From Dokdonia sp. (lineage in GTDB: Bacteria > Bacteroidota > Bacteroidia > Flavobacteriales > Flavobacteriaceae), in assembly GCA_047630395.1 (NCBI GenBank), contig JBLHXM010000004.1, forward strand, positions 867-64,866: 64,000 nt of DNA, written 5' to 3'. Position 1 is the first letter of the stretch, and every line of letters begins with the position of its first letter. Of this stretch, positions 15,364 through 34,349 are shown piece after piece. A program made the translations under genes and the position numbers. The notes below the pieces were generated by a model that worked only from the letters and a program-made list of their open reading frames with translations, was not told the origin of the DNA and made no database searches.

Positions 15364-16998
15364 CTAGGCGTCGTATTTGCTGTTTACATAATCCATCAAG
15401 TCTACATCTTGTCCTAAAAGTACATCTGTAGGGTTAATACGTCCTTTCTCCGGTCCATTCTCTAGTTTCAAAACGCCACGCGGACAAACCGCTGAACATA
15501 CACCACATCCTACACAACTTGAGCGAACAATATTTTCACCTTTTTGAGCATAAGCTCTCACGTCGATTCCTTGTTCACAATAGGTAGAACAGTTTCCACA
15601 AGAGATACATTGCCCTCCATTGGTGGTAATTCGAAATCTAGATTTGAAACGTTGTACAAAACCTAAGTAGGCTGCCAAAGGACATCCAAAACGACACCAC
15701 ACTCTGTTTCCAAAAATAGGATAGAAACCAGTACCTATTACACCTGCAAACCAAGAACCAATGAGAACACTATACACATTTTTAATCCATTCCGCGGGGA
15801 TCCCAATAAAAGAGGATGCTCCTGTAAAATAGCAATAAAGCACGACAAGAGTCATTACTAAAGAGAAAACTAAAACGGAGTGAATTAACCATCTTTCTAA
15901 TTTCCATGAAATCATTTTCTTGCTAGAATGTTGTCTGTATGGATCTCCGAGTGTTTCTGCAAGACCACCACAACCACATACCCAGCTGCAATACCATCTT
16001 TTTCCAAAGAAATAAACCATTACAGGTACGATAACCAGCGTAAGAACGATACCCCACACTAGTATAAATAATCCTATCCCGCCACTATTTATTAAGGTCT
16101 CTAAATTCCATTCAAAAAAGAAATCATAATCTAAGGGAAATGCATTTTTAAAATCATATGCAGGCATATTAAGGCTTGTCATAATTTCAGGGATCAAGAA
16201 TGCAATTACAATCTGAAAGAAAAGAACGGATGTGGTTCTAACAATCTGATATTTATTGTGTCGATATTTGATATACATACGTACTGCCATGACTATCATA
16301 AGAACACAATAAAGGAAGCCATAAACAAACCATTGACTTGCTTCTCCACCACTAAGTGCTTTGCTGATAGGGTCGAGTATAAAAGTCCAGTTCACGATAT
16401 AATCTGCCATAAAGTATAACGTGAGATAAAAGATCACGAGATAAACAAGAACTAACCATGCTATCCAACCACGGTTGGTTGCAGAATTATGATAAATGCC
16501 ATCATTCTTTATCCCCTTTGGGCCTAGTAATTTTAATTGAGGAAAAATAAACAAAAGAGATCCTAGAATACCTAAACCAAATGTGAGAAACCACATCAAT
16601 CCCTTGTTTTCTACGACAAATCCCTGTCCAGCTTTTTTTGCAAGAGAGAAACTCATCGTCCGGAAATCTTTTTCATTAATTCTAAACTGATATTGCTCGC
16701 CTTTCTTTGTCCAGTCTTTAGCAGCATCGTACTTTGCTATGAGTTTATCAAAATGGTTGTTGTTTTTTTCTAGCGCACCTCTTACGCTACTAGAAAAGGT
16801 GAAAATGTCCATTTGCTCTCCTGTAATTACAGCATCTTGTAATTCTTTTTGAAGCAATTCATTTTCTATTCCTTTGTCTTCAAGAAAAGAGGTTAGGTCG
16901 ACTTGTTTAAGTTCAAAACTTCCTAAAAAGATGGATCCCGTAAATATGGCAAGTCCGCAAAGGAATATTATTAAACCTGTATATGTTAATGCTTTCAT
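15364..16998 (-). CDS. membrane-bound 4Fe-4S polyferredoxin-like protein
   Basis: Multiple TM helices and C-terminal 'CISCGNCSTYC' and 'CVGCGVCSAVCP' ferredoxin motifs. ATG at 16998 is preferred over the TTG at 17040. Confidence 0.7.
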   Translation of the reverse strand: MKALTYTGLIIFLCGLAIFTGSIFLGSFELKQVDLTSFLEDKGIENELLQKELQDAVITGEQMDIFTFSSSVRGALEKNNNHFDKLIAKYDAAKDWTKKGEQYQFRINEKDFRTMSFSLAKKAGQGFVVENKGLMWFLTFGLGILGSLLFIFPQLKLLGPKGIKNDGIYHNSATNRGWIAWLVLVYLVIFYLTLYFMADYIVNWTFILDPISKALSGGEASQWFVYGFLYCVLMIVMAVRMYIKYRHNKYQIVRTTSVLFFQIVIAFLIPEIMTSLNMPAYDFKNAFPLDYDFFFEWNLETLINSGGIGLFILVWGIVLTLVIVPVMVYFFGKRWYCSWVCGCGGLAETLGDPYRQHSSKKMISWKLERWLIHSVLVFSLVMTLVVLYCYFTGASSFIGIPAEWIKNVYSVLIGSWFAGVIGTGFYPIFGNRVWCRFGCPLAAYLGFVQRFKSRFRITTNGGQCISCGNCSTYCEQGIDVRAYAQKGENIVRSSCVGCGVCSAVCPRGVLKLENGPEKGRINPTDVLLGQDVDLMDYVNSKYDA

Positions 16999-17071
16999 AG
17001 TTGATGTTTTCGGTAGGTAAGCTTTTGCGAAAACGCACAAAGCCTTTTATGAGGTGAAATAGGTTTTTAGA

Positions 17072-18418
17072 TTACGCTTTACTAAATATGCGGGCCCAGC
17101 TTTTAGCTTTTACCTTGATGTTCTTATTATTTTCTGAATTGTACTGAGATACAATGGATGCTTCGTGAAGTTTGTAAAATTCCGGATCGAAATTGGCATC
17201 CTTCAGATGTTCCATCACATAATCCGTATCGCGTTCTTCTGTGAGCCAGCGATCAAAAATCTCGTGTCTCATTCGTATTCCAAAGGTGTTAATACCTATA
17301 AATTTTCCGGTAGTGCTATCAGAATTCACCGTAATACACTTAGAGTCATCTGCATGTTTCCAGTGGAAATGTGTTTCATTTTCTCTAGGTTTTGCATATA
17401 CCCAACCGTAGGTCTGATACTCAATATCAAAAAACTTAGCACTATTAAACCAGTGTCCAGGGTTGTAGGCTGTGGGTCTCCCACAAATAGTTTGAGCCAA
17501 CGCTTCTCCCATCATACGCCCTGTGTACCAAACCGCTTCTATCGGACGACGGCCATTGATGCCTTCATGCTGTTCTGCACAGTCTCCTATGGCATAGATG
17601 TCAGGAATATTAGTTTCGAGCATAGGATTTACCTTAATACCACGACCTAGTTCGATACCACTCTCTTTTAAGAAATCAATATTGGGTGATACCCCTGCAG
17701 TAAGCCCTACCACATCGCAGGCAAGTTCTTCTCCCGTTTCTTCAATAATTACAGCGCGCGCATTGCCATTCTCGTCAGCGAGAATTTGTTTAAGATTGGT
17801 TCCTAAACGTAAATCAATATGGTGACTTTTAATATGCCGATTGAGCATTTCGCTTTCTCCCGATGGCAATACACCACTCCAGAAACTGTCTTCTCTTACG
17901 AGGAAGGTTACGGGGATTTTACGAGTTGCAAGCATTTCTGCCATCTCAATTCCTATAAGTCCGCCACCTACTATGACTGCGCGTTTACATACTTCTTTAT
18001 TAGGAGCGTTATCTTCCAGTTTCTGAAGATCTTGTGCGCTGTATAGGCCTTGGACGCCTCCTAAGTCTTGCCCAGGCCAACCAAATTTATTAGGCTTTGA
18101 ACCCACTGCTAGAATGAGTTTGTCATATGCCATCGATTCCCCATCAGCAAAGCGAAGTGTCTTTTGTGCGTGATCCACTTTCTGTACAAATGCTCGTTTG
18201 AGTTCGATACGATTTTTCTTCCAGAAATACGCTTCATACGGTTGTGTATGCTCAAACTTCATATGTCCCATATACACATACATTAAGGCAGTGCGTGAGA
18301 AAAAATAATCAGTTTCAGCAGAAATAATGGTGATGCGTTTATCAGAATTCTTTCGAATGTGTCGGGCGGCCGTCACACCTGATACCCCGTTTCCAATAAT
18401 GACAATATGTTCTTCCAT
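17072..18418 (-). CDS. NAD(P)/FAD-dependent pyridine-nucleotide-disulfide-type oxidoreductase
   Basis: Two dinucleotide-binding motifs, 'IVIIGNGVSGVTAA' and 'VIVGGGLIGIEMA'. Located 73 nt upstream of the polyferredoxin gene on the same strand. Confidence 0.8.
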   Translation of the reverse strand: MEEHIVIIGNGVSGVTAARHIRKNSDKRITIISAETDYFFSRTALMYVYMGHMKFEHTQPYEAYFWKKNRIELKRAFVQKVDHAQKTLRFADGESMAYDKLILAVGSKPNKFGWPGQDLGGVQGLYSAQDLQKLEDNAPNKEVCKRAVIVGGGLIGIEMAEMLATRKIPVTFLVREDSFWSGVLPSGESEMLNRHIKSHHIDLRLGTNLKQILADENGNARAVIIEETGEELACDVVGLTAGVSPNIDFLKESGIELGRGIKVNPMLETNIPDIYAIGDCAEQHEGINGRRPIEAVWYTGRMMGEALAQTICGRPTAYNPGHWFNSAKFFDIEYQTYGWVYAKPRENETHFHWKHADDSKCITVNSDSTTGKFIGINTFGIRMRHEIFDRWLTEERDTDYVMEHLKDANFDPEFYKLHEASIVSQYNSENNKNIKVKAKSWARIFSKA

Positions 18419-22407: not shown

Positions 22408-23670
22408 ATGCCTTTACGATATTTAATTCTTGTCTTAGTATTTTTTGCGAATCAAAGCTATGGGCAGGAAGCGCGGGTCTTAGATTTGAAAGTGCAAGGA
22501 AATAAGCGATTAAAGACTTCTTTTGTTCGCTTAATTAGCGAACTTAAACCGGGCGCTGTTTTAGACTCGGCGATTATTGAGCAAGACATCATTCGATTGA
22601 AGCGACTGCCTTCTGTGAGTCATGCGTATTATCAGGTGTTTGAGTCTGAGCCCAATGTCTTCAATGTTTTTTATACTATTCAGGAAAATTTCACGCTCAT
22701 TCCTCAGCTCAATGTGTATACGACCAATAATGATGAATTTGCGTATCGCGTAGGATTGTATGAATACAATACTTTAGGTCGTAGCGTGGCCTTTGGAGGC
22801 TTTTATCAAAAGGATATTTACGATTCCTATGGTGTGAACGTACGTGCCCCATTTCTATTTAATAATAAAGTAGGGATTGCCCTCAATTTTCAAGACTTGA
22901 CAACCCAAGAGCCTGTTTTTTTGGATGAAGGTGTTGCCAATTATAAATATAACAATACCTCTTTTGAGGTGTTGGGGTTATATGCCTTCAATTTTAAGCA
23001 TCGGGTAGAGTTAGGAGTTACTTTTTTTAATGAAGATTACTCGTTTTTGACGGGCGCTACTAATCCATCTATTCCGCAAGACTTTAATATTGACAAAGAG
23101 TTGTATAAAGCGATTTATGAGTACAATGGATTGGACTATTCCTATCAATTTACGTCTGGATTTAAGAGTACGTTCAATTTTCAGTATGTGATTTCTTCAG
23201 ATGCGACCTTGCCTGACTTTTTAATAGGATGGAATGATTTTCAGTATTTTGCGAGAGTAGGAGATTTTGGAAATTGGGCCAGTCGTTTGCGATTGGGTTT
23301 GGCGTCCAATAGGGATTCTCCATTTGCTCCTTTTTCGGTAGATAATAATTTGAATATTAGGGGGGTTGGAAATACGATCGACAGAGGCACGGGCGCTATT
23401 GTTTTAAATACGGAATACCGACATACAGTATATGAGAAAGATTGGTTTATTCTGCAAGCGAATGCCTTTATTGATGGAGGTACTTGGCGTAATCCAGGAG
23501 GAGATTTCGGTGATTTTAGTGATGATCAGAACCTAAGAATCTATCCAGGGATTGGTGTACGCTTTATTCATAAACAGATATTCAATGCTACGTTTCGAGT
23601 AGATTATGGTTACGGGATTACGCCCGGAGCCACCAGCGGATTGGTCTTTGGTATTGGTCAGTATTTCTAG
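22408..23670 (+). CDS. Omp85/BamA-family outer-membrane protein with a single POTRA domain
   Basis: Signal peptide, POTRA-like 'VLDLKVQGNKRLKTSFVRLISELKPGAVLD', a beta-barrel-like remainder and a terminal 'GIGQYF'. Confidence 0.6.
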   Translation: MPLRYLILVLVFFANQSYGQEARVLDLKVQGNKRLKTSFVRLISELKPGAVLDSAIIEQDIIRLKRLPSVSHAYYQVFESEPNVFNVFYTIQENFTLIPQLNVYTTNNDEFAYRVGLYEYNTLGRSVAFGGFYQKDIYDSYGVNVRAPFLFNNKVGIALNFQDLTTQEPVFLDEGVANYKYNNTSFEVLGLYAFNFKHRVELGVTFFNEDYSFLTGATNPSIPQDFNIDKELYKAIYEYNGLDYSYQFTSGFKSTFNFQYVISSDATLPDFLIGWNDFQYFARVGDFGNWASRLRLGLASNRDSPFAPFSVDNNLNIRGVGNTIDRGTGAIVLNTEYRHTVYEKDWFILQANAFIDGGTWRNPGGDFGDFSDDQNLRIYPGIGVRFIHKQIFNATFRVDYGYGITPGATSGLVFGIGQYF

Positions 23671-24353
23671 GAAACAATGTGTTTTTGATAATACTGGAAT
23701 AATTCTTTTGGCGAAGCTCCAAACCATTTTTTGACATAGATCACCCAAAAATGATATTGTAATTTCCAAGTGCCACTACTTTGATAACGCCTCGCTGAGG
23801 TGATTATCCGTTCCTGAATAACTACGAACTCTCCGCGCTCGTAGAGTTTGTTGATGAGGTCATTGTCTTCGTAAATCATATAAGATTCATCAAAACCTCC
23901 TAGTTCATTGAATAATTTTTTGGTAATAAACTGACTCTGATCTCCACCGCGGCAGGCTCTCCATTCGAATTTTGTAAGCCATCCTGCTAAGCGAAGCCAC
24001 CAGTGCGAACTGTCAAATTGCATTCTAAAGCATCCAGCTTCATTCCATTGTTTCACTTCCTTTTGGATGAGGGTGTCATAATTTTCCGGAGGAAAAGAAT
24101 CGGCATGTAGAAAGTAGAGGATTTCATGTTGTGCTATACGAGCACCGGCATTCATTTGTACAGCTCTGCCCTTACTAGCTGAAATTACGGTGATATTGTG
24201 CGCTTTCGCGAAAGCGATTGTCTCATCACTACTTCCGCCATCCACAACAATAATTTCTGGTTTGATGACACTGCATTCTTTTAAATGATCTAACAAACGA
24301 CCAATGTTTTCAGCTTCGTTTAAGGTTGGGATGATCACCGAAATTTTGGACAT
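23667..24353 (-). CDS. family-2 glycosyltransferase (TIGR04283-like, rSAM/selenodomain-associated type)
   Basis: 'ISVIIPTLNEAENI' and 'VVDGGSSDET' GT2 motifs. ATG at 24353 sits 5 nt after the upstream DUF547 stop. Confidence 0.7.
   Translation of the reverse strand: MSKISVIIPTLNEAENIGRLLDHLKECSVIKPEIIVVDGGSSDETIAFAKAHNITVISASKGRAVQMNAGARIAQHEILYFLHADSFPPENYDTLIQKEVKQWNEAGCFRMQFDSSHWWLRLAGWLTKFEWRACRGGDQSQFITKKLFNELGGFDESYMIYEDNDLINKLYERGEFVVIQERIITSARRYQSSGTWKLQYHFWVIYVKKWFGASPKELFQYYQKHIVS
24201..24216. repeat. palindrome, exact, 16 bp (CGCTTTCGCGAAAGCG)
   Basis: Inside the minus-strand GT2 gene, read as A-F-A-K-A. Confidence 0.95.
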
Positions 24354-24357
24354 GTTT

Positions 24358-25272
24358 TTAGTTGTTAAGTGTCCAGTCATAGTCCTTGTATCGTTTCTTT
24401 GCTTTTGGCGAGATCGCCGTATCTGAATATTTGTTCAGGAAATCGATAAGTGAACCATTTGTTTTGAAATCTTTGGAAAACCAATTAAATATTTTAGAAA
24501 CTTCAATGCTATTTGTGGTAATCGTGTTGCGTTGCGTATCGTTTACAAAGGTGCGAGAGAGCCTGTCTAGTTGTGCGTCGACATCCTGAGCGGTAAAGGC
24601 TTCATTAAGTAATGGTGGGCAAGAAAAAGAAGCGCAGTTGATTCCAAAATGAATTCTAGGATCTCCCATTTTACGTAAAATTTGGTGCTCGATTTCGTTG
24701 AGGTTATACCATTTGTCGCCTAATTTCCAAAGCCGTTGATCCCAAGGATCTTTAATGTCTTTAATACTTGCAAGTGGGTAATTTCTCAAAATAAGATCCA
24801 CCGTCATGGCGTTATAGGCATTCATCCAGTAGGCGAGTTTATTTAGTTGACCCCAACGGTGTGGATCTGGCATGTTCTCACCAAGATATTTAATGTAATC
24901 TCTTAAAACCTTCCATTCTTTTTTAATACCATCGTAATCAACATTTCCTGAAGCAGAAATATGTTTTTTAAGTAGCGCATCAAAGTTAGAATGATTTACA
25001 AATTCGACAGGGATATCTGTCACGATATATACTTCTTCGTCAACAGTATCTTCTATGACTTCCTGAGCAGGAATTTCATTAGTCACAGCGGGTAATTCAG
25101 GAGTTTCTATAATTTCCGTTTCTACCTTCGGCGTCGTTTTGGGAGCTGCTGCAATGATCACTTTTTCTTCAATAACCGTTACGGGGACTGGGGTAGTTGT
25201 TGCAATATTTTTTGATCCGCCGCAGGAGGTCAAAAGAGCTATAAGTACTAGAAGATATAGACTGTTTTTCAT
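24358..25272 (-). CDS. DUF547-domain lipoprotein (second paralogue)
   Basis: Lipobox 'LLTSCGG', and 'YWMNAYNAMTVDLI' and 'RIHFGINCASFSCPPL' DUF547 motifs. Confidence 0.7.
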   Translation of the reverse strand: MKNSLYLLVLIALLTSCGGSKNIATTTPVPVTVIEEKVIIAAAPKTTPKVETEIIETPELPAVTNEIPAQEVIEDTVDEEVYIVTDIPVEFVNHSNFDALLKKHISASGNVDYDGIKKEWKVLRDYIKYLGENMPDPHRWGQLNKLAYWMNAYNAMTVDLILRNYPLASIKDIKDPWDQRLWKLGDKWYNLNEIEHQILRKMGDPRIHFGINCASFSCPPLLNEAFTAQDVDAQLDRLSRTFVNDTQRNTITTNSIEVSKIFNWFSKDFKTNGSLIDFLNKYSDTAISPKAKKRYKDYDWTLNN

Positions 25273-25444: not shown

Positions 25445-25477
25445 AAAAAGGCACAGAAATCTATCTGTGCCTTTTTG
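25445..25477 (-). terminator. bidirectional rho-independent terminator after arsM
   Basis: Stem AGGCACAGA (25449-25457) / TCTGTGCCT (25464-25472), 6-nt loop, with an A-run and a T-run on the flanks. Confidence 0.8.
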
Positions 25478-25507: not shown

Positions 25508-26476
25508 TTAACAACATCCACCGCCATCATAGTGGAAGGTAGACTCACTAATGAAAATATCGCTACGTTCTAAGGCAGCAAGATGTCCTGCAGTTTTGTC
25601 ACAAATCGCAAGCGGTTGATTCTTTATAAGTACGTGTCCTGACTTGTCATCAAAGTAATCTCCTGAACCGTAATAGATGGCTGCTTTTCCTGTGAAGATA
25701 CAAGGGCCATCTGCTGGCATTGGATCTTTAATGGCTGCAATCTCAATCGATTCGATATAGATCAACTCATCTGTTGGGTAATCTTCCGTATTTAAAATAC
25801 GGTAAGGTTTTCTTGCTCTGATTTCAATCGTTCCAAAGCCCTCATCGGTTAGCGCTTTGATATAGTCGGCAATAGGAAGACTACCACTTAGGCAAAGTGC
25901 GCGAAGTGTCGGGTCATTGCGAAGTTCATCGTTCATTTCTTGTTCGCAAGTGGGATCACTCATCACTAAGCGTCCGTGTGGTTTTAATACACGATACATT
26001 TCTTGAACGGCACGTTTTAAGTCTTCAGCTTTGAAGATGTTGAAAAGGCAGTTTTGAGCAGCCACATCAATAGAATTGTCCTCTACAGGTAAGTTCAGTG
26101 CATCTCCTTTTTTAAGTGCTACAAAGTCACTTTTGAACCAAGGGTTCATTTTCTCTGCTTCCATAAAATTTTTACGAGAAGCCTCTAGCATTTCGTCTAC
26201 AACGTCCACCCCTACAACACCGCCTTTGTTACGGTTGAAATAGGCAAACTGAAGCAATTCCATACCGCCTCCTACACCTACGTAGAGCATTCTTGGTTCG
26301 TTGGTTAGATCTCGTGCATTTACGGTGCTTCCGCAGCCGTAATTCATCTCTTGCATGATCTTTGGAATCTTCAAGCCTGGTAGCTCCCAAATTGGATTGG
26401 TTGTACAACAAAGTCCAATGTCTGGAGTTAAAGCGGCTTCTTTATAAACGTCAACTGTCGTATCTAAGTAACTCAT
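25508..26476 (-). CDS. arsM: ArsM-type SAM-dependent arsenite methyltransferase (arsenosugar-cluster type)
   Basis: 322 aa. N-terminal cysteine pair 'GLCCTTNP', 'MNYGCGS', SAM motif 'LYVGVGGGMEL' and a C-terminal 'DGGGCC'. It is the last gene of the rSAM operon. Confidence 0.7.
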   Translation of the reverse strand: MSYLDTTVDVYKEAALTPDIGLCCTTNPIWELPGLKIPKIMQEMNYGCGSTVNARDLTNEPRMLYVGVGGGMELLQFAYFNRNKGGVVGVDVVDEMLEASRKNFMEAEKMNPWFKSDFVALKKGDALNLPVEDNSIDVAAQNCLFNIFKAEDLKRAVQEMYRVLKPHGRLVMSDPTCEQEMNDELRNDPTLRALCLSGSLPIADYIKALTDEGFGTIEIRARKPYRILNTEDYPTDELIYIESIEIAAIKDPMPADGPCIFTGKAAIYYGSGDYFDDKSGHVLIKNQPLAICDKTAGHLAALERSDIFISESTFHYDGGGCC

Positions 26477-26544
26477 ATATTCTATTTGTGGTTTGCCTCA
26501 ATCGCGACCGTCTGTATAGGCTTAGCTGCAATTTGGCGTACGCT

Positions 26545-27357
26545 TTATAAATTTTTTATTAATTCACTAAATAAGCTAATCATTGCAGGTTCTGCTTTAC
26601 CAGCCATTGCAATAATTTCTGATATATCAACAGGTTTTAGATGTTCTGGGTCGCATTCATCTGTGATTACTGACACAGCAATCACAGGGAGTTTTAAATG
26701 GTTGGCCACAATGACTTCTGGGACGGTACTCATTCCAACAGCATCGGCGCCAATTATTTTTAAGTAGCGATACTCTGCACGTGTTTCCAGTTGCGGGCCC
26801 ACTACAGAAGCATACACTCCTTTATGCAGTTGGATGCCTTTTTCTTGAGCAATTTTTTCCAAGGCAGCATTCATAGTTACATCATAGGGTGCGCTCATAT
26901 CTGTAAAGCGCTCTCCTAGCTTTTCAACGCCTTTAAACGCAAGTGGAGAACCTCCTTGCAGATTGATGTGATCGTCGATGAGCATTAAGGATCCCTTCTT
27001 AAAGTCAAGGTTGATGGCTCCTGCTGCATTCGATACTAATAATTTCTGAACGCCCAAGGCATGCATAATACGCACTGGGAAGGTCACATCTGTTAAACTA
27101 TAGCCTTCATACAAGTGGAAACGTCCTTGCATAACAATGACCTTTTTTCCTTCCAAATTTCCATAGATAAGTTTCCCTTTATGGAACTCAACAGTTGCTG
27201 TGGGGAAATTTGGAATATGGTTATAACTCACCGTTTTCAAAACATCAATTTTATCAACCAGTTGGCCAAGGCCTGTGCCTAATATGATTCCTATTTCAGG
27301 AGCTTGAAAGCCTTTCTGTTGTAAATATTCGGTGGTTTCTTGAATGAATTTCTGCAT
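26545..27357 (-). CDS. purine nucleoside phosphorylase (trimeric PNP-I type)
   Basis: 'ILGTGLGQLV', 'MQGRFHLYEGY' and 'GADAVGMSTVPE' motifs. Confidence 0.85.
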   Translation of the reverse strand: MQKFIQETTEYLQQKGFQAPEIGIILGTGLGQLVDKIDVLKTVSYNHIPNFPTATVEFHKGKLIYGNLEGKKVIVMQGRFHLYEGYSLTDVTFPVRIMHALGVQKLLVSNAAGAINLDFKKGSLMLIDDHINLQGGSPLAFKGVEKLGERFTDMSAPYDVTMNAALEKIAQEKGIQLHKGVYASVVGPQLETRAEYRYLKIIGADAVGMSTVPEVIVANHLKLPVIAVSVITDECDPEHLKPVDISEIIAMAGKAEPAMISLFSELIKNL

Positions 27358-27363
27358 ATATTC

Positions 27364-28068
27364 CTATTGGATAATCAATTTCTGTGTAATCTGTTGTCCT
27401 TGAGACATAATCCTTAAGAGATACAATCCTGTTTTTAAATCAGTAATATTTACTGGATTTGTATCACTTACTTGTTGTGCTAGTACCCGTTTTCCAAGGA
27501 TGTCAAAAATAGCAATTTCAGCAGGGTTTTGTAGTCCGCTGATATGGAAATTATCACTTGCAGGATTTGGATAAACATTTACGTGGTCAAGGTTATTTTC
27601 AACAAGACTCAAGGTCGAACAATCCGGCCCTTGGTTGCTTCCTAAATCGGCACGGCCCCATAAAACATCTGCCTGTACACATTGGATTATAATGTAGTCA
27701 AAATCACTCAGATTTACAGCTGCGGGCACATCAAAGGTTTTCATCCCTGTAATTGGGTCATTCATATCTTGACCTCCATTGTCATCTTGTAAAGGTTCGG
27801 TCGTTACCTCTATTTCATTACCGCCTTGTGCAAGTCGGGGAGTGCTAGAAAGAAATACGCGCAATTCAATTCCTTGAACCGTTACGAAGTCGTCTGCAAA
27901 AACAACTTGTTTGCTGCCATCGGTTTGAAACTCTAAAGAAGCCGTTCCTGCAACTGGATATTGTGCAGGATCATCAATAGCTTCAAATTGATCTTCTCGA
28001 GAACATTGTGCCTGACTGATAGTGGTAAATGCAAAGATTGCTAAAAATAATGTAAGTGTAATTTTCAT
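27364..28068 (-). CDS. DM13-domain protein with a T9SS C-terminal sorting domain
   Basis: Signal peptide, DM13-like 'GTASLEFQTDGSKQVVFADDFVTVQGIELRVFLS', and the C-terminal 'VYPNPASDNFHI...GLYLLRIMSQGQQITQKLIIQ'. Confidence 0.6.
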   Translation of the reverse strand: MKITLTLFLAIFAFTTISQAQCSREDQFEAIDDPAQYPVAGTASLEFQTDGSKQVVFADDFVTVQGIELRVFLSSTPRLAQGGNEIEVTTEPLQDDNGGQDMNDPITGMKTFDVPAAVNLSDFDYIIIQCVQADVLWGRADLGSNQGPDCSTLSLVENNLDHVNVYPNPASDNFHISGLQNPAEIAIFDILGKRVLAQQVSDTNPVNITDLKTGLYLLRIMSQGQQITQKLIIQ

Positions 28069-28086
28069 ATCATATATAGGATTTAA

Positions 28087-28689
28087 TTAGTCTTTTAAAT
28101 ACTTTTCAAAGGCAGGGTATCCCTGTAAATCTTCAGCGTGATCAATATCATTTAAGGTTTCTAGTTGGTGTATTGAGTACCCTTCTAGATCTTTCATTGT
28201 CGTTTCAAAAACAGTATCCCCTCCCCAGGTTTTTTTGTAGAATACGTCTTTTAGTAGGCTCCGCATTCCTAGTAAGTAATAGCCTCCATCTTGGGCGGGT
28301 CCAATCACTACGTCATGGGTCTCCAATGCTTCGAAGGCATCTTCAATATGTTTTGGACATAGATCATATAAATCACTCCCTACGATTAGTACTTTGGTGT
28401 AGTTGTCTTGGTATGCTTTCGCGAAAGCGTGATACATCCTATCTCCTAAATCTTCCCCTTCTTGCAGAAACTTTTCGAAGATGCCTGCTTCCCAAATGTC
28501 GTTTGGTCGCACTTTCACCGAATACCCTACACGCTTGGTGCAATTTATTTGCGAAACCACATTTTTAGTATGTTCCAATAAGGTTTTATAGATGGTCAAT
28601 GCATTTTCAGCACCTACACCTTTGGCAAGGCGAGTTTTAACTTTTCCTAGTTCAGGGTTGCGCGTGAATATGAGAAGGATATCAGACAT
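28087..28689 (-). CDS. DUF2064 / TIGR04282-like transferase (rSAM/selenodomain-associated type)
   Basis: N-terminal 'LIFTRNPELGKVKTRLA' and 'GPAQDGGYYLLG' nucleotidyltransferase-like motifs. Confidence 0.7.
   Translation of the reverse strand: MSDILLIFTRNPELGKVKTRLAKGVGAENALTIYKTLLEHTKNVVSQINCTKRVGYSVKVRPNDIWEAGIFEKFLQEGEDLGDRMYHAFAKAYQDNYTKVLIVGSDLYDLCPKHIEDAFEALETHDVVIGPAQDGGYYLLGMRSLLKDVFYKKTWGGDTVFETTMKDLEGYSIHQLETLNDIDHAEDLQGYPAFEKYLKD
28415..28428. repeat. palindrome GCTTTCGCGAAAGC, exact
   Basis: Inside the TIGR04282-like gene (minus strand), read as A-F-A-K-A. Confidence 0.95.
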
Positions 28690-28712
28690 TTATCTCTTTT
28701 TGATGGACAGCG

Positions 28713-29198
28713 CTAATGCACTTTGATTCCCGTGGTGAGGTATTTTCCCCACCGCCGACTATAAACATGCACACTATCTGTCATTTTTTCACTACGGTTG
28801 TATACAGGATAGCCGTTGTCTTTCCATGCAAAAATACTTCCGTATAAATTTTTTATATTGGTATAGCCAAGTGCTTGTAAGCGTTCACCAAAATCTTCTG
28901 AACGAATACCTACTGAGCAATAGACAACGATGGGCTGGGATTTGTTGGGATACGCTTTCGCGAAAGCGGAATCAACCATCCCGCTCACCCAAACGGCATT
29001 AGGTAGATGACTTACGAGGTATTCCTGTTTTTCTCGAGTGTCGAGCACAAGGTAGTCGCAGGAATGCTGTTTCAAATCTTGCACAGAAATATAGGGAACC
29101 GTGCCCTGGTTGTATTCTTTTAGAAGCATATCAATATCTGCTTGTGCAGCTACTTGTGCTGAAAACAGAAAGACTATTATTCTTAATATCCACGGCAT
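28713..29198 (-). CDS. secreted rhodanese-domain protein
   Basis: Active-site loop 'VVYCSVGIRS'. The signal peptide begins at ATG 29198 ('MPWILRIIVFLFSAQVAAQ'). Confidence 0.7.
   Translation of the reverse strand: MPWILRIIVFLFSAQVAAQADIDMLLKEYNQGTVPYISVQDLKQHSCDYLVLDTREKQEYLVSHLPNAVWVSGMVDSAFAKAYPNKSQPIVVYCSVGIRSEDFGERLQALGYTNIKNLYGSIFAWKDNGYPVYNRSEKMTDSVHVYSRRWGKYLTTGIKVH
28953..28968. repeat. palindrome, exact, 16 bp
   Basis: Inside the rhodanese gene (minus strand), read as A-F-A-K-A. Confidence 0.95.
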
Positions 29199-29275
29199 TC
29201 CTACTTTTGAGCAAGAGGATGTTTTGGATGGTATATTAAGAATTTGGAGCATATAAGTTGTGGGTCGTTATTCAA

Positions 29276-30331
29276 TTATGCAACGGTTCCTTGACAGCTA
29301 CTTCCTGCGCCAGCGGTACAGCCATAGCAATGTTGTGAAATCACGATATCTCTGTTATTGAGCAGATCTTCGTTATAGTCTGAGATATGCTTGACAGGAC
29401 TATTTACAGGTAAGCCGAGCATTTGATTGAAATCACAGTCAAATATCTTACCATCCCAGCTGATAGAAATAGTGTTGGTACACATTACACTTTGAACGGC
29501 CATTGGGTTATACGCTTCTACAAGCGAGTACATATAGTCTTCATAGTTTTCTGAAGCAATTAAGTAGTCCAGAAAACGTGCGATAGGTAGGTTGGTAATC
29601 GCAAATAAGTTATGAAACTGAATATCGAAATCGTCAAGTAAAGCGCTTTTAAAATCTTTTTGCATGCTCGCTTGGTCTCCGGGTAAGAAGGCACCTGATG
29701 GATTATAGACAAGATCCAATCGCAGGTCACTTCCTGGCATTCCATAGCCTATTGCGTTCAAGTCCTGTAAGGCTCTAATAGATTTATCAAAAACACCCTC
29801 ACCACGCTGCTTATCCGTTTTTCCCCGTGTCCAATGTGGCATAGAGGAAATAACATGTATGTTGTGTTTTTTAAAGAATTCGGGTAGATCGTAGTATTTT
29901 TTATTGGCACGGATGATCGTTAGATTCGAACGTACGATAAAATCTTTGATGCCCGCTTTGGCAGCTTCTTCGACAAACCAGCGAAAATCAGGATTCATTT
30001 CTGGGGCACCTCCGGTCAAATCTAGCGTATGTGCTCCTGTAGTTTTAATGATATCAAGACACTGTCGCATTGTATCTCGTGTCATAATCTCTTTACGATC
30101 GGGTCCAGCATCTACGTGGCAGTGATCACAAACCTGGTTGCACATGTATCCTACATTGATTTGCAGGATTTCAAGGGTACTAGGGCGCAATGGAAACTGA
30201 TGTGTTTCCTTGATTTTTTTGGCAAAGGTGGGTAGTTCTCCATTGGCAAAGATGCCATTGGATAATATCTCTAATTGCTTATTTGTGTTGGCAAGTTCGT
30301 TGCCTAATTTTTGTAACGATTTTGTAGCCAT
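29276..30331 (-). CDS. arsS: ArsS-type radical SAM enzyme (arsenosugar biosynthesis; TIGR04167-like)
   Basis: 'GYMCNQVCDHC' CX3CX2C cluster motif and the Cys-rich tail 'SQHCYGCTAGAGSSCQGTVA', which is the Cys form of the so-called selenodomain. Confidence 0.75.
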   Translation of the reverse strand: MATKSLQKLGNELANTNKQLEILSNGIFANGELPTFAKKIKETHQFPLRPSTLEILQINVGYMCNQVCDHCHVDAGPDRKEIMTRDTMRQCLDIIKTTGAHTLDLTGGAPEMNPDFRWFVEEAAKAGIKDFIVRSNLTIIRANKKYYDLPEFFKKHNIHVISSMPHWTRGKTDKQRGEGVFDKSIRALQDLNAIGYGMPGSDLRLDLVYNPSGAFLPGDQASMQKDFKSALLDDFDIQFHNLFAITNLPIARFLDYLIASENYEDYMYSLVEAYNPMAVQSVMCTNTISISWDGKIFDCDFNQMLGLPVNSPVKHISDYNEDLLNNRDIVISQHCYGCTAGAGSSCQGTVA

Positions 30332-30388
30332 ATACGAATGCTCAGCGAGCGAATATCTTATTGGATAAGGAATGTTTCGATTGCGAAT

Positions 30389-30724
30389 CTAACCATCCAA
30401 TTTATTTACTTTATTCATCATCATGGTCGCATGAACAAGGGTGGCTCCGCTTTTAATAGCGGCACCTACGTGCACAGCTTCCATCATTTCTTCTTTAGTG
30501 ACTCCGCGCTGTAAACCATCTTTGGTATACGCATCTATGCAATACGGACATTGTTCTGTATGTGCTACGGCGAGGGCAATTAACGATTTTTCACGAGCGG
30601 TAAGAGCGCCTTCTTGAAAAACGCTACCATAGTAATCAAAGAATTTTGTTCCTAGTTCTTCACTCCATTCGGTTATTTTACCGAAGTTCCGAAGATCCTT
30701 AGGATCATAATATTGGTCTGCCAT
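30389..30724 (-). CDS. carboxymuconolactone-decarboxylase-fold, peroxidase-like protein (arsenosugar-associated type)
   Basis: 111 aa with an AhpD/CMD-like 'HTEQCPYCIDAY' CxxC motif. It is the first gene of the operon. Confidence 0.7.
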   Translation of the reverse strand: MADQYYDPKDLRNFGKITEWSEELGTKFFDYYGSVFQEGALTAREKSLIALAVAHTEQCPYCIDAYTKDGLQRGVTKEEMMEAVHVGAAIKSGATLVHATMMMNKVNKLDG

Positions 30725-30939: not shown

Positions 30940-31012
30940 GGTGCCTTAGCTCAGTTGGTAGAGCAATGGACTGAAAATCCATGTGTCCCTGGTTCGATTC
31001 CTGGAGGCACCA
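30940..31012 (+). tRNA. tRNA-Phe (anticodon GAA)
   Basis: Manual cloverleaf: 7-bp acceptor stem GGTGCCT/AGGCACC, D arm GCTC/GAGC, anticodon arm ATGGA-CTGAAAA-TCCAT, and T arm CCTGG-TTCGATT-CCTGG with one U-U mismatch. CCA is not encoded. Confidence 0.85.
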
Positions 31013-31019
31013 CCTTATA

Positions 31020-31046
31020 ACCCGATCTTTTAGATCGGGTTTTTTG
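31020..31046 (+). terminator. rho-independent terminator after tRNA-Phe
   Basis: Stem ACCCGATCT (31020-31028) / AGATCGGGT (31032-31040), followed by TTTTTTG. Confidence 0.75.
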
Positions 31047-32530: not shown

Positions 32531-33130
32531 CTATTTCTCGGCAATCTCACTCAAGATATCTTCAGATTGCTTTAAGAGGCCGCAACTAAATTTTGAGATG
32601 TAGCGAATCATTAAAAAGAAGAGTAAGAAGCAAATGGGTAAGGCGATGAGAAGCTTTGTATCTAAGGATTCAAATAAATTTTCATCGTTGATTAATTTCC
32701 CAGTGACCGGAATGGTAAGTAACATAAAAAAGAAACTACCAATCATATTCATTTTTTGAAAATTTACAAAACGCTTTTTGGCTCTGGCATAGCTCGCCAT
32801 CATTTTAGAATACGGGTCCGACAATGAGATGCTTTGCAGGCCATGAACGCTTTTGAGTGAGAGTATAGGAGCGATTATTAAGATCACCACACACAATACT
32901 CCACAAATCTGTAAGAGCAATGTGTCGAGTTTACTAAAATGGAATAACAAAGCGAATACTACGCCATAACTAACCACGGCACTTATTTTCTCTGCGATCC
33001 CAATTTTATTCCATGGCTTTGAGAATTTATCCTGTGTCATTTTCATAATGATCTCATCAGTAAGCTTCTTTTGTGTTTCTAGTTGGTCACTCATTTGCGA
33101 CCAAGCTGCCTGCATTTCTTCTAGTTCCAT
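32531..33130 (-). CDS. membrane protein, possible anti-sigma factor
   Basis: Four predicted TM helices. The start is 5 nt downstream of the ECF sigma gene stop. Confidence 0.35.
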   Translation of the reverse strand: MELEEMQAAWSQMSDQLETQKKLTDEIIMKMTQDKFSKPWNKIGIAEKISAVVSYGVVFALLFHFSKLDTLLLQICGVLCVVILIIAPILSLKSVHGLQSISLSDPYSKMMASYARAKKRFVNFQKMNMIGSFFFMLLTIPVTGKLINDENLFESLDTKLLIALPICFLLFFLMIRYISKFSCGLLKQSEDILSEIAEK

Positions 33131-33134
33131 ATCG

Positions 33135-33620
33135 CTAATTTTGATGCATTTCTTTTTTTAATTTGTCTTTGATACGAGAGATTCGGGTGCCCACCGTGGT
33201 TCGCGTTAAGCCCGTAATTTCTGAGATTTCCTCGTATTTCTTTCCTTCGAGCAACAAGAGCATGATTCCCTTTTCAAGATCACTCAAACGACGAATTTGC
33301 GTGTACATTTCTTTGATCCTTTCCTCCTGTATTGGATCATGGGGCTCATAGGTCAGTTGGATATCATCAAGAGTTACCGCATGTCCTCTTCGTTTTTCCT
33401 TTCGGAGAAATGAAAAGGCAGTATTTAAGGCAACGCGGTACATCCAAGTACTCGCTTTGGAGTCCCCTCGGAAACTATCAAACCCCTTCCATAATTGGAA
33501 TACGATTTCTTGATAGAGATCTTTCTGATCTTCGTAGCTATCGCAATACGCCCGCGATAGTTTAAAAATGATCCCCTCGTTGTTTTTAATCATTGCTGTA
33601 AAAGCAGCTTCTTTGCGCAT
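33135..33620 (-). CDS. ECF (sigma-70 family) RNA polymerase sigma factor
   Basis: Region 2 'DLYQEIVFQLWKGFDSFRGDSKASTWMYRVALN' and the region 4 HTH 'YEEISEITGLTRTTVGTRISR'. Confidence 0.85.
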   Translation of the reverse strand: MRKEAAFTAMIKNNEGIIFKLSRAYCDSYEDQKDLYQEIVFQLWKGFDSFRGDSKASTWMYRVALNTAFSFLRKEKRRGHAVTLDDIQLTYEPHDPIQEERIKEMYTQIRRLSDLEKGIMLLLLEGKKYEEISEITGLTRTTVGTRISRIKDKLKKEMHQN

Positions 33621-33743
33621 GTATGATTCTGTTTACGGGCTATTAGTATCGCTTTCGCGAAATAGTCACAGAAGTTCGCGATTTTTTTTCAAAAGTAGGT
33701 TGTATTGAGATTTTGTAATTTCGCTTTAAGCAAAAACACACCT

Positions 33744-34349
33744 ATGAGTTGGATTAAAACCATTGACTATGACGAAGCCGAAGGCCCTTTAAAACCTATC
33801 TATAATCGTGTAAAAGGCCCGGATAACAGTATAGATAATGTGTTGAGTATTCACAGTTTGCGACCGCATACATTGACAGGGCATATGACCTTGTATAAAA
33901 GTGTTTTACACAATACAAATAATACCTTGCCTAAGTGGTACCTCGAAGCTTTGGGTGTTTATGTAAGTCATTTAAACCAATGTGATTATTGCGAGCAACA
34001 TCATTTTGCAGGATTTAGTAGACTCCTCGAAGATGCTGAAAAGGCTACAGTATTTATGAACGCGGTCAAAGCAGATGATGTAGCGCCTTTTTTTAGCGAT
34101 CAATATGCTGCAGGCGCTGCCTATGCTCGAAAACTCACACGTGCGCATGCTACTATCGTTAAAGCCGATATTGAGCACCTTAGTACTGTAGGTTTTTCAG
34201 ATGGAGCAGTATTGGAGATCAATCAAGTGACGAGTTATTTCAACTATGTCAATCGCATGGTCGTTGGCCTCGGAGTACATACCGATGGTGATATTATCGG
34301 ATTGTCTCCTGGGAATAGTGCTTCACCTAACGATTGGGAGCACCTTTAA
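33744..34349 (+). CDS. CMD/AhpD-fold peroxidase-related protein
   Basis: 'LNQCDYCEQHH' CxxC motif. ATG at 33744 is preferred over the upstream extension. Confidence 0.65.
   Translation: MSWIKTIDYDEAEGPLKPIYNRVKGPDNSIDNVLSIHSLRPHTLTGHMTLYKSVLHNTNNTLPKWYLEALGVYVSHLNQCDYCEQHHFAGFSRLLEDAEKATVFMNAVKADDVAPFFSDQYAAGAAYARKLTRAHATIVKADIEHLSTVGFSDGAVLEINQVTSYFNYVNRMVVGLGVHTDGDIIGLSPGNSASPNDWEHL

What the first reader, a model, noticed from the sequence alone, without database searches (positions are those of the whole stretch)
25508..30724. Seven-gene ArsM/ArsS-type radical-SAM operon: a candidate complete organoarsenical (arsenosugar) pathway in a heterotrophic flavobacterium
The operon is on the minus strand with short gaps. 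In order it encodes a CMD/peroxidase-like CxxC protein, a radical SAM enzyme (CX3CX2C plus the Cys-rich tail CYGCTAGAGSSCQGTVA), a rhodanese, a DUF2064/TIGR04282-like transferase, a DM13+T9SS protein, a trimeric-type purine nucleoside phosphorylase, and a 322-aa methyltransferase with cysteine pairs at both ends (LCCTT and GGGCC). From memory, this co-occurrence is the 'rSAM/selenodomain-associated' neighbourhood (TIGR04167, 04169, 04282, 04283). It was later linked to arsenosugar synthesis through the cyanobacterial ArsM/ArsS pair. Proposed pathway (inference): ArsM makes dimethylarsenite. ArsS adds the 5'-deoxyadenosyl moiety. The co-transcribed PNP could remove adenine phosphorolytically. 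The TIGR04282-like enzyme and the nearby GT2 (23667-24353) could then activate and transfer the arsenoribose. To my knowledge the steps after ArsS have not been assigned experimentally, and this operon offers named candidates for them. The tail here has Cys at the position where some homologues have selenocysteine.
Basis: partly seen in the sequence, partly recalled or inferred. Interest (0 to 1): 0.7.

Follow-up and report, generated by a model that had tools for sequence, protein, structure and literature searches.

The report
Flavobacterial arsenosugar gene cluster with PNP
This is an intact copy of a gene cluster that databases already label "arsenosugar biosynthesis" and that is common in marine flavobacteria; its only new lead is a co-located nucleoside phosphorylase and nucleotidyltransferase that could explain the still-unknown later steps of arsenic-sugar synthesis.

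Summary
Seven tightly packed minus-strand genes (25508-30724) form one transcription unit, bounded by tRNA-Phe upstream and a strong terminator downstream. NCBI already names these families "arsenosugar biosynthesis", and near-identical clusters fill Flavobacteriaceae genomes. The cluster is therefore a new member of a known kind.

The purine nucleoside phosphorylase (PNP) is the part worth following up.
- It is the fourth most frequent gene family near ArsS (40 of 81 Bacteroidota loci).
- It lies directly beside TIGR04282 in 37 of 40 loci, across several different gene orders.
- Its clade is mostly cluster-linked in PNP-anchored metagenome loci.
- It has Asp at human Asn243 and a hydrophobic residue at His257, as MTAP does. 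That signature also occurs in unlinked PNPs.

TIGR04282 folds like CofC/FbiD nucleotidyltransferases. This fits the route DDMAA → arsenoribose-1-phosphate → NDP-arsenoribose → β-riboside, which remains untested. The T9SS gene is a lineage-specific insertion, and its DM13 match is below threshold.

The parts
30940..31014 (+). tRNA-Phe (GAA), followed by a hairpin at 31019-31041. Marks the upstream boundary of the operon.
   Evidence: ARAGORN; hairpin; sequence.
30389..30724 (-). AhpD/CMD-like CxxC protein, the arsenosugar-associated peroxidase-like protein (TIGR04169).
   Evidence: 182.9 bits against cutoff 120. C59-P-Y-C62 is invariant in 65/65 homologues. The family lies next to ArsS in 65/81 loci. 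An ArsS-CMD fusion exists, P0165.
29276..30331 (-). ArsS, the radical SAM enzyme that adenosylates dimethylarsenite to DDMAA.
   Evidence: TIGR04167 429.4/300 and DUF3641. CX3CX2C (C64/C68/C71) and the tail cysteines C335/C338/C346 are conserved in 80-81/81 sequences. ArsS-ArsM fusions occur in both domain orders. The reaction is known from PMC13598754.
28713..29252 (-). Single-domain rhodanese with an N-terminal signal peptide (NF045521, 'rhodanese near glycosyltransferase').
   Evidence: 186/145 bits. The active-site Cys112 is conserved in 35/36. Signal-peptide-like N-termini occur in most family members inspected. Present in 35/81 loci.
28087..28689 (-). TIGR04282/DUF2064 protein, predicted to be a nucleotidyltransferase (CofC/FbiD-like fold).
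   Evidence: 207.7/134 bits, plus CofC TIGR03552 at E 2.7e-11. PDB 3cgx matches at E 1.7e-27. The AF2 model has pLDDT 93.1. Foldseek gives CofC 2i5e, 7p97 and FbiD 6bwh at TM 0.65-0.76, against about 0.5 for GT-A glycosyltransferases. Present in 61/81 loci.
27364..28068 (-). Secreted protein with a T9SS C-terminal sorting domain and a sub-threshold DM13-like N-terminal domain. It is a lineage-specific insertion, not a core gene.
   Evidence: Por_Secre_tail 61.6/23 bits. DM13 17.7/25 bits. The family occurs in only 4/81 loci. Polaribacter L011 and L054 carry a 27-29% identical gene at the same site. It is absent in Dokdonia Hel_I_53.
26545..27357 (-). Trimeric-family purine nucleoside phosphorylase with Asp at the human-Asn243 position. 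Candidate DDMAA phosphorylase.
   Evidence: NF006054 346.1/218 bits. Present in 40/81 loci and adjacent to TIGR04282 in 37/40. Asp243 occurs in 40/40 and Ile/Val/Leu at position 257 in 40/40, with phosphate and ribose ligands conserved.
25508..26476 (-). Arsenosugar-type arsenite methyltransferase ArsM.
   Evidence: NF038099 557.9/400 bits. C48, C143 and C195 align with CmArsM C72, C174 and C224 and are invariant in 35/35.
25450..25471 (-). Intrinsic terminator: GGCACAGA-UAGAUU-UCUGUGCC followed by a U-run. Ends the seven-gene transcript.
   Evidence: dG -35.1 kcal/mol, z -8.2, 0/200 shuffles reach it; sequence.
24358..25272 (-). DUF547 lipoprotein, a conserved cluster member transcribed separately.
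   Evidence: PF04784 86.3 bits. The N-terminus ends in LTSC, a lipobox-like motif. Present in 31/81 loci.
23667..24380 (-). TIGR04283 GT2 glycosyltransferase, the candidate arsenoribosyl transferase.
   Evidence: 258.3/182 bits. Present in 28/81 loci. It immediately follows PNP-TIGR04282 in L066, L069 and L081.
15364..18418 (-). Possibly associated redox module: a pyridine-nucleotide-disulfide oxidoreductase (17072-18418) and a NapH-like 4Fe-4S membrane protein (15364-17040).
   Evidence: 71% and 47% identity to families f10 and f11. These lie within 10 kb of ArsS in 14 and 12 loci, including verrucomicrobial L079.

Best explanation
The region is an intact copy of the arsenosugar biosynthesis cluster that RefSeq already annotates, in a Dokdonia-like marine flavobacterium.

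Step 1 is inferred from family membership and conserved catalytic cysteines. ArsM methylates As(III) twice to give dimethylarsenite.

Step 2 follows from equivalog membership, and the reaction itself has been shown for ArsS (the arsS gene role was established in Synechocystis). ArsS attaches the 5'-deoxyadenosyl group of SAM to arsenic, giving 5'-deoxy-5'-dimethylarsinoyl-adenosine (DDMAA).

Steps 3 to 5 are inferred from gene linkage, fold and stereochemistry. The operon's PNP cleaves DDMAA with phosphate to give adenine and alpha-5-deoxy-5-dimethylarsinoyl-ribose-1-phosphate. The TIGR04282 protein, which has a CofC/FbiD-like nucleotidyltransferase fold, converts that product with an NTP into an NDP-arsenoribose. 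The TIGR04283 GT2, an inverting family, transfers the sugar to an acceptor to give the beta-riboside found in natural arsenosugars. The acceptor might be glycerol-type or lipid-linked.

The CxxC AhpD-like protein, the exported rhodanese, the DUF547 lipoprotein and a nearby flavoprotein/4Fe-4S pair probably supply thiol or redox and envelope functions. The T9SS gene is an accessory insertion.

My sub-confidences are about 0.9 for the cluster's identity and the ArsM/ArsS chemistry, and about 0.4 for the PNP to TIGR04282 to GT2 chain.
For: Identity:
- All family models score above curated cutoffs.
- The catalytic cysteines of ArsM, ArsS and the CMD protein are invariant.
- ArsS-ArsM, ArsS-CMD and flavin-reductase-ArsS fusions exist.
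- MIP aquaglyceroporin and PiT phosphate-transporter genes sit in related clusters.
- The ArsS reaction is documented (PMC13598754; Xue 2019 as cited).

PNP:
- It is the fourth most frequent family near ArsS, in 40/81 loci, and in 28/49 loci that have at least 6 kb on both sides.
- It is immediately adjacent to TIGR04282 in 37/40 loci.
- The linkage survives at least five different gene orders. Examples are ArsS-PNP-T4282-GT2 in Parafilimonas L066, Chryseolinea L069 and L081; CMD-ArsS-PNP in L089 and L155; an opposite-strand arrangement in L053; and Rhod-T4282-PNP-DUF547-GT2 without ArsS in L104.
- In PNP-anchored metagenome loci, 21/25 in the window's PNP clade are linked to ArsS or T4282 (12/16 if both flanks are at least 3 kb). 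In the outgroup clade 0/18 are linked.
- The phosphate ligands are conserved. Asp replaces Asn243 and Ile/Val/Leu replaces the 5'-OH-binding His257 in 40/40, as in MTAP D220 and V233.

TIGR04282: the model has pLDDT 93, and the closest characterised folds are guanylyl- and cytidylyltransferases.

Stereochemistry, from established knowledge: PNP gives an alpha-ribose-1-phosphate, nucleotidyl transfer keeps the anomer, and inverting GT2 gives a beta product. Natural arsenosugars are beta-ribofuranosides (title of PMC6656958).
Against: - No arsenic speciation data exist for any flavobacterium in the held literature.
- PNP is absent within 10 kb of ArsS in 21/49 full-flank loci, including many that have TIGR04282. 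It is therefore not obligatory in the cluster.
- The Asp243/hydrophobic-257 signature is shared by all 80 PNP-anchored metagenome loci, most of them unlinked (26/38 with good flanks). It is not an adaptation specific to this pathway.
- The PNP may be the genome's only PNP and may serve general salvage.
- No PNP-ArsS fusion was seen among the 20 long ArsS proteins examined.
- A terminator separates the operon from DUF547-GT2.
- NCBI calls TIGR04282 a glycosyltransferase, and no biochemistry exists for it.
Confidence: 0.55

Rival explanations
1. The cluster makes DDMAA and arsenosugars as annotated, but the PNP is the organism's ordinary adenine-nucleoside phosphorylase. It would be kept in the operon for by-product or SAM-cycle salvage: adenosine from the two SAH produced per dimethylarsenite, or 5'-deoxyadenosine from uncoupled ArsS turnover. 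It would not act on DDMAA, and another enzyme or chemistry would remove the adenine.
For: D243-type PNPs are a broad subfamily, mostly found outside ArsS clusters (26/38 loci with good flanks). The best PDB relatives, 4lna and 4m1e, share the motif. The PNP passes the generic PNP equivalog models. 21/49 ArsS loci have no PNP within 10 kb.
Against: Adjacency is to TIGR04282 (37/40), not to ArsM or ArsS, and it persists through rearrangements. In L104 it persists even where ArsS and ArsM are absent. No SAH hydrolase, MetK or 5-deoxyribose-shunt genes were noted among the recurrent families.
Confidence: 0.3
2. The PNP supplies arsenite. It would act as an arsenate reductase through arsenolysis, forming ribose-1-arsenate that thiols then reduce, and so feed ArsM in a cluster that lacks ArsC.
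For: Mammalian PNP reduces arsenate in vitro with dithiols (Gregus & Nemeti 2002 and Radabaugh 2002, as cited in PMC12608789). No ArsC was found in the operon. PiT phosphate/arsenate transporters occur in some related clusters.
Against: The in vivo relevance of this activity is doubted even in mammals (same review). It does not explain the near-obligate adjacency to TIGR04282 and GT2. The rhodanese is exported, so it is not a cytosolic Acr2-like partner.
Confidence: 0.05
3. In Bacteroidota the cluster does not end in classical arsenosugars. It might make a different organoarsenical, such as an envelope arsenolipid, or act on another metalloid. In that case the 'arsenosugar' names are over-propagated annotation.
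For: Function has been shown only for cyanobacterial ArsM/ArsS. Related clusters often carry a fatty-acid-hydroxylase-family membrane enzyme (18 loci), DUF547 lipoproteins and exported rhodanese. The GT2 is distantly similar to polyprenyl-phosphate GT2s.
Against: The As(III)-binding cysteines and all ArsS motifs are conserved. Scores are at equivalog level. An aquaglyceroporin sits beside ArsM in some clusters. An arsenolipid end product would still pass through the same early steps.
Confidence: 0.1

Closest known systems
Synechocystis sp. PCC 6803 arsM-arsS pair (Xue et al. 2019; ArsS biochemistry in Cheng et al. 2021)
   Same: The same two enzyme families, co-transcribed. ArsM provides dimethylarsenite and ArsS makes DDMAA.
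   Different: This is a nine-gene neighbourhood in a non-photosynthetic flavobacterium, with PNP, TIGR04282, TIGR04283, rhodanese, CMD and DUF547 genes. ArsS is only about 45-50% identical to the most similar representatives outside the Bacteroidota set. Nothing here has been tested experimentally.
NCBIfam/RefSeq 'arsenosugar biosynthesis' neighbourhood (TIGR04167, TIGR04169, TIGR04282, TIGR04283, NF038099, NF045521), formerly 'rSAM/selenodomain-associated'
   Same: All six models are matched above cutoff. Orthologous clusters in Algibacter, Winogradskyella, Dokdonia, Kordia and Aquimarina already carry these names.
   Different: No model or name covers the PNP, which is the fourth most common neighbour. 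The window adds a T9SS gene and lacks the FA_hydroxylase and SusC/SusD insertions of its relatives.
5'-methylthioadenosine phosphorylase (MTAP/MtnP) and 5'-deoxyadenosine salvage
   Same: The PNP has Asp at the adenine-recognising position and a hydrophobic residue where PNP binds the 5'-OH, as in MTAP D220 and V233. DDMAA is a 5'-substituted adenosine like MTA.
   Different: By sequence it is not an MTAP: TIGR01694 scores 92.8 against a cutoff of 274.85. It belongs to the PNP-I (PunA) lineage.
CofC/FbiD and 3-phosphoglycerate guanylyltransferases of F420 biosynthesis
   Same: These are the best characterised structural matches to TIGR04282 (TM 0.65-0.76), and there is a profile hit to CofC. 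They perform NMP transfer onto a phosphorylated small molecule.
   Different: Sequence identity is 15-20%. The substrate here is unknown. The closest structure, 3cgx, is an uncharacterised DUF2064 protein.
Arsinothricin ArsL/ArsM pathway
   Same: A radical SAM enzyme forms a C-As bond and is paired with an ArsM-type methyltransferase.
   Different: ArsL transfers the 3-amino-3-carboxypropyl group, not the adenosyl group. The window ArsM scores only 101.6/500 on the arsinothricin ArsM model.

Membership tests
ArsS (TIGR04167 equivalog) | Full-length HMM score above the curated cutoff | tested here: met
   429.4 bits against 300, covering profile positions 2-302 of 303.
ArsS (TIGR04167 equivalog) | Radical SAM CX3CX2C motif and the Cys-rich DUF3641 tail with GxxC/U | tested here: met
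   C64/C68/C71 and C335/C338/C346 are conserved in 80-81/81. DUF3641 scores 180.4 bits. The GxxU motif is given in PMC13188914.
ArsS (TIGR04167 equivalog) | Adenosylation of dimethylarsenite to DDMAA | not testable with these tools
   Known only for the characterised ArsS enzyme (PMC13598754; arsS in Synechocystis).
Arsenosugar-type ArsM (NF038099) | HMM score above the curated cutoff | tested here: met
   557.9 bits against 400, full length.
Arsenosugar-type ArsM (NF038099) | Three As(III)-binding cysteines (CmArsM C72, C174, C224) | tested here: met
   They align with window C48, C143 and C195 and are invariant in 35/35.
TIGR04169 peroxidase-like protein | HMM score above cutoff and the AhpD-type CxxC | tested here: met
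   182.9/120 bits. CPYC is invariant in 65/65.
TIGR04282 (DUF2064) | HMM score above cutoff | tested here: met
   207.7/134 bits. 3cgx matches at E 1.7e-27.
TIGR04282 (DUF2064) | Glycosyltransferase activity, as implied by the NCBI name | tested here: inconclusive
   The fold is closer to nucleotidyltransferases (TM 0.65-0.76) than to GT-A glycosyltransferases (about 0.5). No biochemistry is available.
TIGR04283 GT2 | HMM score above cutoff | tested here: met
   258.3/182 bits.
NF045521 rhodanese near glycosyltransferase | HMM score above cutoff and the catalytic Cys | tested here: met
   186/145 bits. Cys112 is conserved in 35/36.
Trimeric PNP family (NF006054) | HMM score above cutoff, with phosphate and ribose ligands conserved | tested here: met
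   346.1/218 bits. H64 in 39/40; R84, H86, Y88, M219 and S220 in 40/40; S33 replaced by Thr in 39/40.
Inosine/guanosine-specific PNP I (TIGR01700) | Asn243, the determinant of 6-oxopurine specificity | tested here: not met
   Asp in 40/40 cluster PNPs. The HMM score is only marginally above cutoff, 296.7 against 293.35.
MTAP (TIGR01694) | HMM score above cutoff | tested here: not met
   92.8 bits against 274.85. Only two active-site positions resemble MTAP.
DM13 domain (PF10517) | Pfam gathering score | tested here: not met
   17.7 bits against 25, E 0.0056, although the match spans profile positions 8-105 of 105.
T9SS type A sorting domain (TIGR04183) | HMM score above cutoff at the C-terminus | tested here: met
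   61.6/23 bits, residues 165-234. PDB CTD matches 8glk and 8glj.
Arsenosugar-producing system | Production of dimethylarsinoyl-ribosides that depends on the cluster | not testable with these tools
   No paper in the held library mentions arsenosugars together with flavobacteria and arsM.

The most novel reading that the evidence does not exclude
Marine Flavobacteriaceae make arsenosugars, or arsenosugar lipids, by a nucleotide-sugar route not described before. A PNP-family enzyme would phosphorolyse DDMAA. A DUF2064/TIGR04282 nucleotidyltransferase would form an NDP-5-deoxy-5-dimethylarsinoyl-ribose donor. An inverting GT2 would then install the beta-riboside. This would fill the gap left open since the Edmonds-Francesconi proposal and would make heterotrophic, algae-associated bacteria a source of oceanic arsenosugars.
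Probability: 0.35. Interest if true: 0.75.

Novelty: new member of a known kind. Interest (0 to 1): 0.5.

Why it matters
Arsenosugars are the main arsenic species in seaweeds and a dietary exposure route. Only the first two enzymes, ArsM and ArsS, have been assigned. Adenine removal and glycoside formation have been hypothetical for decades.

This cluster, and above all the conserved PNP-TIGR04282-GT2 linkage documented here, gives three named and clonable candidates. It also gives a stereochemically coherent scheme that can be tested in culturable strains such as Dokdonia sp. Hel_I_53 and Algibacter or Winogradskyella species.

The analysis also suggests that NCBI's name 'glycosyltransferase' for TIGR04282 is probably wrong, and that heterotrophic flavobacteria may contribute to marine organoarsenic cycling. 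The cluster itself is already annotated, so the value lies in the hypothesis and not in the discovery of the locus.

Tried and rejected
1. I considered the PNP's MTAP-like residues (Asp243, hydrophobic 257) as a pathway-specific adaptation. I rejected this because all 80 PNP-anchored metagenome loci have Asp243 and most are unlinked to ArsS. PDB 4lna and 4m1e share the motif too.
2. I considered the T9SS/DM13 gene as a core pathway member and rejected it. The family is in only 4/81 loci and absent in Dokdonia Hel_I_53, and the DM13 match is below threshold.
3. I looked for Rosetta-stone fusions of ArsS with PNP or TIGR04282. None appeared among the 20 long ArsS proteins examined. Only ArsM, CMD and flavin-reductase fusions were found.
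4. The sigma-70 promoter scan was uninformative: 11 sites against 22.6 expected. Bacteroidota promoters differ from that consensus.
5. Literature searches for arsenosugars with PNP, with flavobacteria or with glycosyltransferase plus ArsS found nothing relevant. Subscription papers are not covered.
6. I hoped the diverse ArsS alignment would bring in cyanobacterial loci. The 80 best loci were all Bacteroidota apart from one verrucomicrobial MAG and one unclassified bacterial MAG, so conclusions about PNP linkage apply to that phylum only.
7. I did not attempt a GT2 structure model.

Full report
OBSERVATION

The quoted motifs are all in the translations: CPYC, CNQVCDHC, HCYGCTAGAGSSCQGTVA, LCCTT and GGGCC.

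The unit has clear boundaries. Upstream lies a tRNA-Phe gene on the opposite strand (30940-31014), followed by a hairpin at 31019-31041. Immediately after the ArsM stop codon there is a textbook intrinsic terminator at 25450-25471 (dG -35.1 kcal/mol, z = -8.2, 0/200 shuffles reach it). The seven genes are therefore one transcription unit. The DUF547 gene (24358-25272) and the GT2 gene (23667-24380) follow on the same strand as a separate unit.

FAMILY ASSIGNMENT

- TIGR04169: 182.9/120
- TIGR04167 (ArsS): 429.4/300
- NF045521 (rhodanese): 186/145
- TIGR04282: 207.7/134
- NF006054 (PNP): 346.1/218
- NF038099 (arsenosugar-type ArsM): 557.9/400
- TIGR04283 (the GT2): 258.3/182

Pfam agrees.

The three As(III)-binding cysteines of the crystallised CmArsM (C72, C174, C224) align with window C48, C143 and C195. 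They are invariant in 35/35 cluster ArsMs. The radical-SAM and tail cysteines of ArsS, and the CxxC of the CMD protein, are likewise invariant.

The selenocysteine remark is right. A 2026 selenoproteome review lists TIGR04167 with the Sec motif GxxU (PMC13188914), which corresponds to window G343-S-S-C346. Five diverse homologues end exactly at '...GSS', as expected when UGA is read as a stop.

The DM13 call is not supported at threshold: 17.7 bits against 25, E 0.0056. The T9SS sorting domain is solid.

HOW NEW THE CLUSTER IS

It is not new. NCBIfam already describes these models as 'arsenosugar biosynthesis ...'.

ArsS has more than 8000 homologues in the word-indexed search. The best 120, at 84-100% identity, come from Algibacter, Winogradskyella, Dokdonia, Olleya, Postechiella and related genera, many already named ArsS. 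The TIGR04282 and PNP searches point to a Dokdonia-like source, with up to 94% identity to metagenome proteins and 88% to Dokdonia. PGAP's 'arsenosugar biosynthesis glycosyltransferase' labels are already quoted in genome papers (PMC13077682).

What is established experimentally is that arsS encodes the first committed step using ArsM's product (Xue 2019, as summarised), and that ArsS adenosylates DMAs(III) to DDMAA (PMC13598754). I found no paper in the held library that assigns later steps, or that links arsenosugars with flavobacteria or with a PNP in biosynthesis.

COMPARATIVE GENOMICS

An exhaustive search with ArsS found 4408 cluster representatives at E ≤ 0.001. These include ArsS-ArsM fusions in both orders, an ArsS-CMD fusion and a flavin-reductase-ArsS fusion. 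The fusions independently tie ArsM and the CMD protein to ArsS.

A diverse ArsS alignment retrieved 80 genome loci. All are Bacteroidota apart from one verrucomicrobial MAG and one unclassified bacterial MAG, with ArsS 57-87% identical to the window's. I clustered all ORFs from these loci plus the window without presupposing which genes mattered. Families ranked by number of loci, out of 81:
- ArsS: 81
- CMD: 65
- TIGR04282: 61
- PNP: 40
- rhodanese: 35
- ArsM: 35
- DUF547: 31
- TIGR04283 GT2: 28
- a fatty-acid-hydroxylase-family membrane enzyme: 18
- the T9SS/DM13-like gene: 4

In Flavobacteriaceae the core order is CMD-ArsS-Rhod-T4282-PNP-ArsM-(FA hydroxylase)-DUF547-GT2. The window differs in two ways. 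It has the T9SS gene inserted between T4282 and PNP, as two Polaribacter loci also do with a 27-29% identical gene. It also lacks the FA hydroxylase. Dokdonia sp. Hel_I_53 has the cluster without the T9SS gene but with a SusC/SusD/transporter/metallophosphoesterase insertion.

Some related clusters carry a MIP aquaglyceroporin next to ArsM or a PiT phosphate transporter. These fit an arsenic-handling role.

THE PNP

In the forward direction, PNP lies within 10 kb of ArsS in 28 of 49 loci that have at least 6 kb on both sides. It is immediately adjacent to TIGR04282 in 37 of 40 cases. Two of the three exceptions are the T9SS insertions.

The linkage survives different architectures:
- ArsS-PNP-T4282-GT2 in Parafilimonas, Chryseolinea and L081
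- CMD-ArsS-PNP in L089 and L155
- an opposite-strand arrangement in L053
- ArsS-ArsM-Rhod-T4282-PNP in L011, L123 and related loci
- Rhod-T4282-PNP-DUF547-GT2 with no ArsS within 8 kb in L104

For the reverse direction I anchored 80 metagenome loci on PNP. In the window's PNP clade, 21 of 25 are linked to ArsS or T4282, or 12 of 16 if both flanks must be at least 3 kb. In the sister clade 0 of 18 are linked.

At residue level I used reference sequences recalled from memory and checked them against published numbering. All 40 cluster PNPs keep the phosphate and ribose ligands. All 40 have Asp at human Asn243, the 6-oxo versus 6-amino purine determinant. All 40 have Ile, Val or Leu at His257, the 5'-OH ligand. 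This is the pattern of MTAP (D220, V233).

That signature is also present in all 80 PNP-anchored loci, most of them unlinked, and in PDB 4lna and 4m1e. It shows the enzyme could accept a 5'-substituted adenosine. It does not show that the enzyme evolved for DDMAA. By HMM the protein is a PNP, not an MTAP (TIGR01694 92.8/274.85).

TIGR04282

By sequence it matches only the uncharacterised 3cgx. A high-confidence model (pLDDT 93.1, pTM 0.89) superposes best on CofC, 3-phosphoglycerate guanylyltransferase and FbiD (TM 0.65-0.76). IspD, KdsB, MobA and the heptose-1-phosphate guanylyltransferase HddC come next. Genuine GT-A glycosyltransferases score around 0.5. Together with the CofC profile hit, this favours nucleotidyl transfer onto a phosphorylated substrate over glycosyl transfer.

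MECHANISM

The shown or strongly inferred part is As(III) → DMAs(III) by ArsM, then → DDMAA by ArsS.

The inferred part runs as follows:
- PNP plus phosphate converts DDMAA to adenine and alpha-arsenoribose-1-phosphate.
- TIGR04282 plus an NTP converts that to an NDP-arsenoribose.
- The inverting GT2 then forms a beta-riboside.

From established enzymology the stereochemistry runs beta, alpha, alpha, beta. This matches the beta-ribofuranoside of natural arsenosugars (compound name in PMC6656958).

The rhodanese and DUF547 families mostly carry signal-peptide or lipoprotein-like N-termini, and the T9SS protein is secreted. Part of the system therefore acts in the envelope. Together with the FA-hydroxylase gene of relatives, this leaves open a lipid-linked end product.

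RIVAL EXPLANATIONS

The main rival is that the PNP is simply the lineage's adenine-nucleoside phosphorylase, kept nearby for salvage of adenosine or 5'-deoxyadenosine. In its favour are the broad distribution of the subfamily and the PNP-less clusters. Against it are the specific and rearrangement-proof adjacency to TIGR04282 and GT2.

PNP as an arsenolytic arsenate reductase is unlikely. A non-arsenosugar end product cannot be excluded without chemistry.

VERDICT

The locus itself is an ordinary member of an already annotated, very common cluster. The residual interest is the PNP-nucleotidyltransferase-GT2 hypothesis for the unassigned steps, which is now backed by comparative and structural evidence and is directly testable.

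Noticed in passing
window 15364-18418 (-) and 18674-19384 (+): A pyridine-nucleotide-disulfide oxidoreductase (17072-18418) and a NapH/MauN-like 4Fe-4S membrane protein (15364-17040) lie about 5 kb beyond the GT2. The same pair is within 10 kb of ArsS in 12-14 other loci, including a verrucomicrobial MAG (L079). It may be a dedicated reductant system. A second DUF547 copy sits at 18674-19384.
   Followed up: partly
window 32531-33620 (-); L161 11993-13089: An ECF sigma factor (65% identical) and a 199-aa membrane partner (30% identical) lie 2 kb upstream of the operon here. In Dokdonia sp. Hel_I_53 they sit inside the cluster, between two DUF547 genes. They are a candidate regulator pair.
   Followed up: partly
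L002, L003, L008, L017, L054, L032, L161: In several Flavobacteriaceae a roughly 7.7 kb block is inserted between ArsS and the rhodanese-T4282-PNP module. The block holds SusC, SusD, an SSF-like transporter and a metallophosphoesterase. These loci also carry a second, 226-aa TIGR04282 paralogue right after ArsS.
   Followed up: partly
L001-L080 (18 loci), L161 9941-10834: A fatty-acid-hydroxylase-family (OlsE-like) membrane enzyme commonly sits between ArsM or PNP and DUF547. It is absent from the window, where only a 236-bp terminator-containing gap remains. It hints at a lipid-related product.
   Followed up: no
L057, L062, L063, L077 (MIP); L001, L020, L045 (PiT): Aquaglyceroporin (MIP) genes lie adjacent to ArsM or ArsS, and PHO4/PiT phosphate-transporter genes occur inside some related clusters. 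These are plausible arsenite and arsenate entry routes.
   Followed up: no
P0138-P0209 (ArsS representatives): Long ArsS proteins include ArsS-ArsM and ArsM-ArsS fusions, an ArsS-CMD fusion (P0165) and a flavin-reductase-ArsS fusion (P0166). Several others have 200-420 aa N-terminal extensions with no Pfam or NCBIfam match (P0138, P0149, P0150, P0159).
   Followed up: partly
window 33705-34349 (+): A second AhpD-like 'peroxidase-related enzyme' (TIGR01926, 90.8/81.8 bits) with a CDYC motif lies 3 kb upstream of the operon, next to the ECF sigma pair.
   Followed up: no
L104 (metagenome contig Ga0105052_10000781): A Rhod-T4282-PNP-DUF547-GT2 module occurs with no ArsS or ArsM detected within 8 kb on either side. 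The 'downstream' module can therefore exist apart from the C-As bond-forming genes.
   Followed up: no
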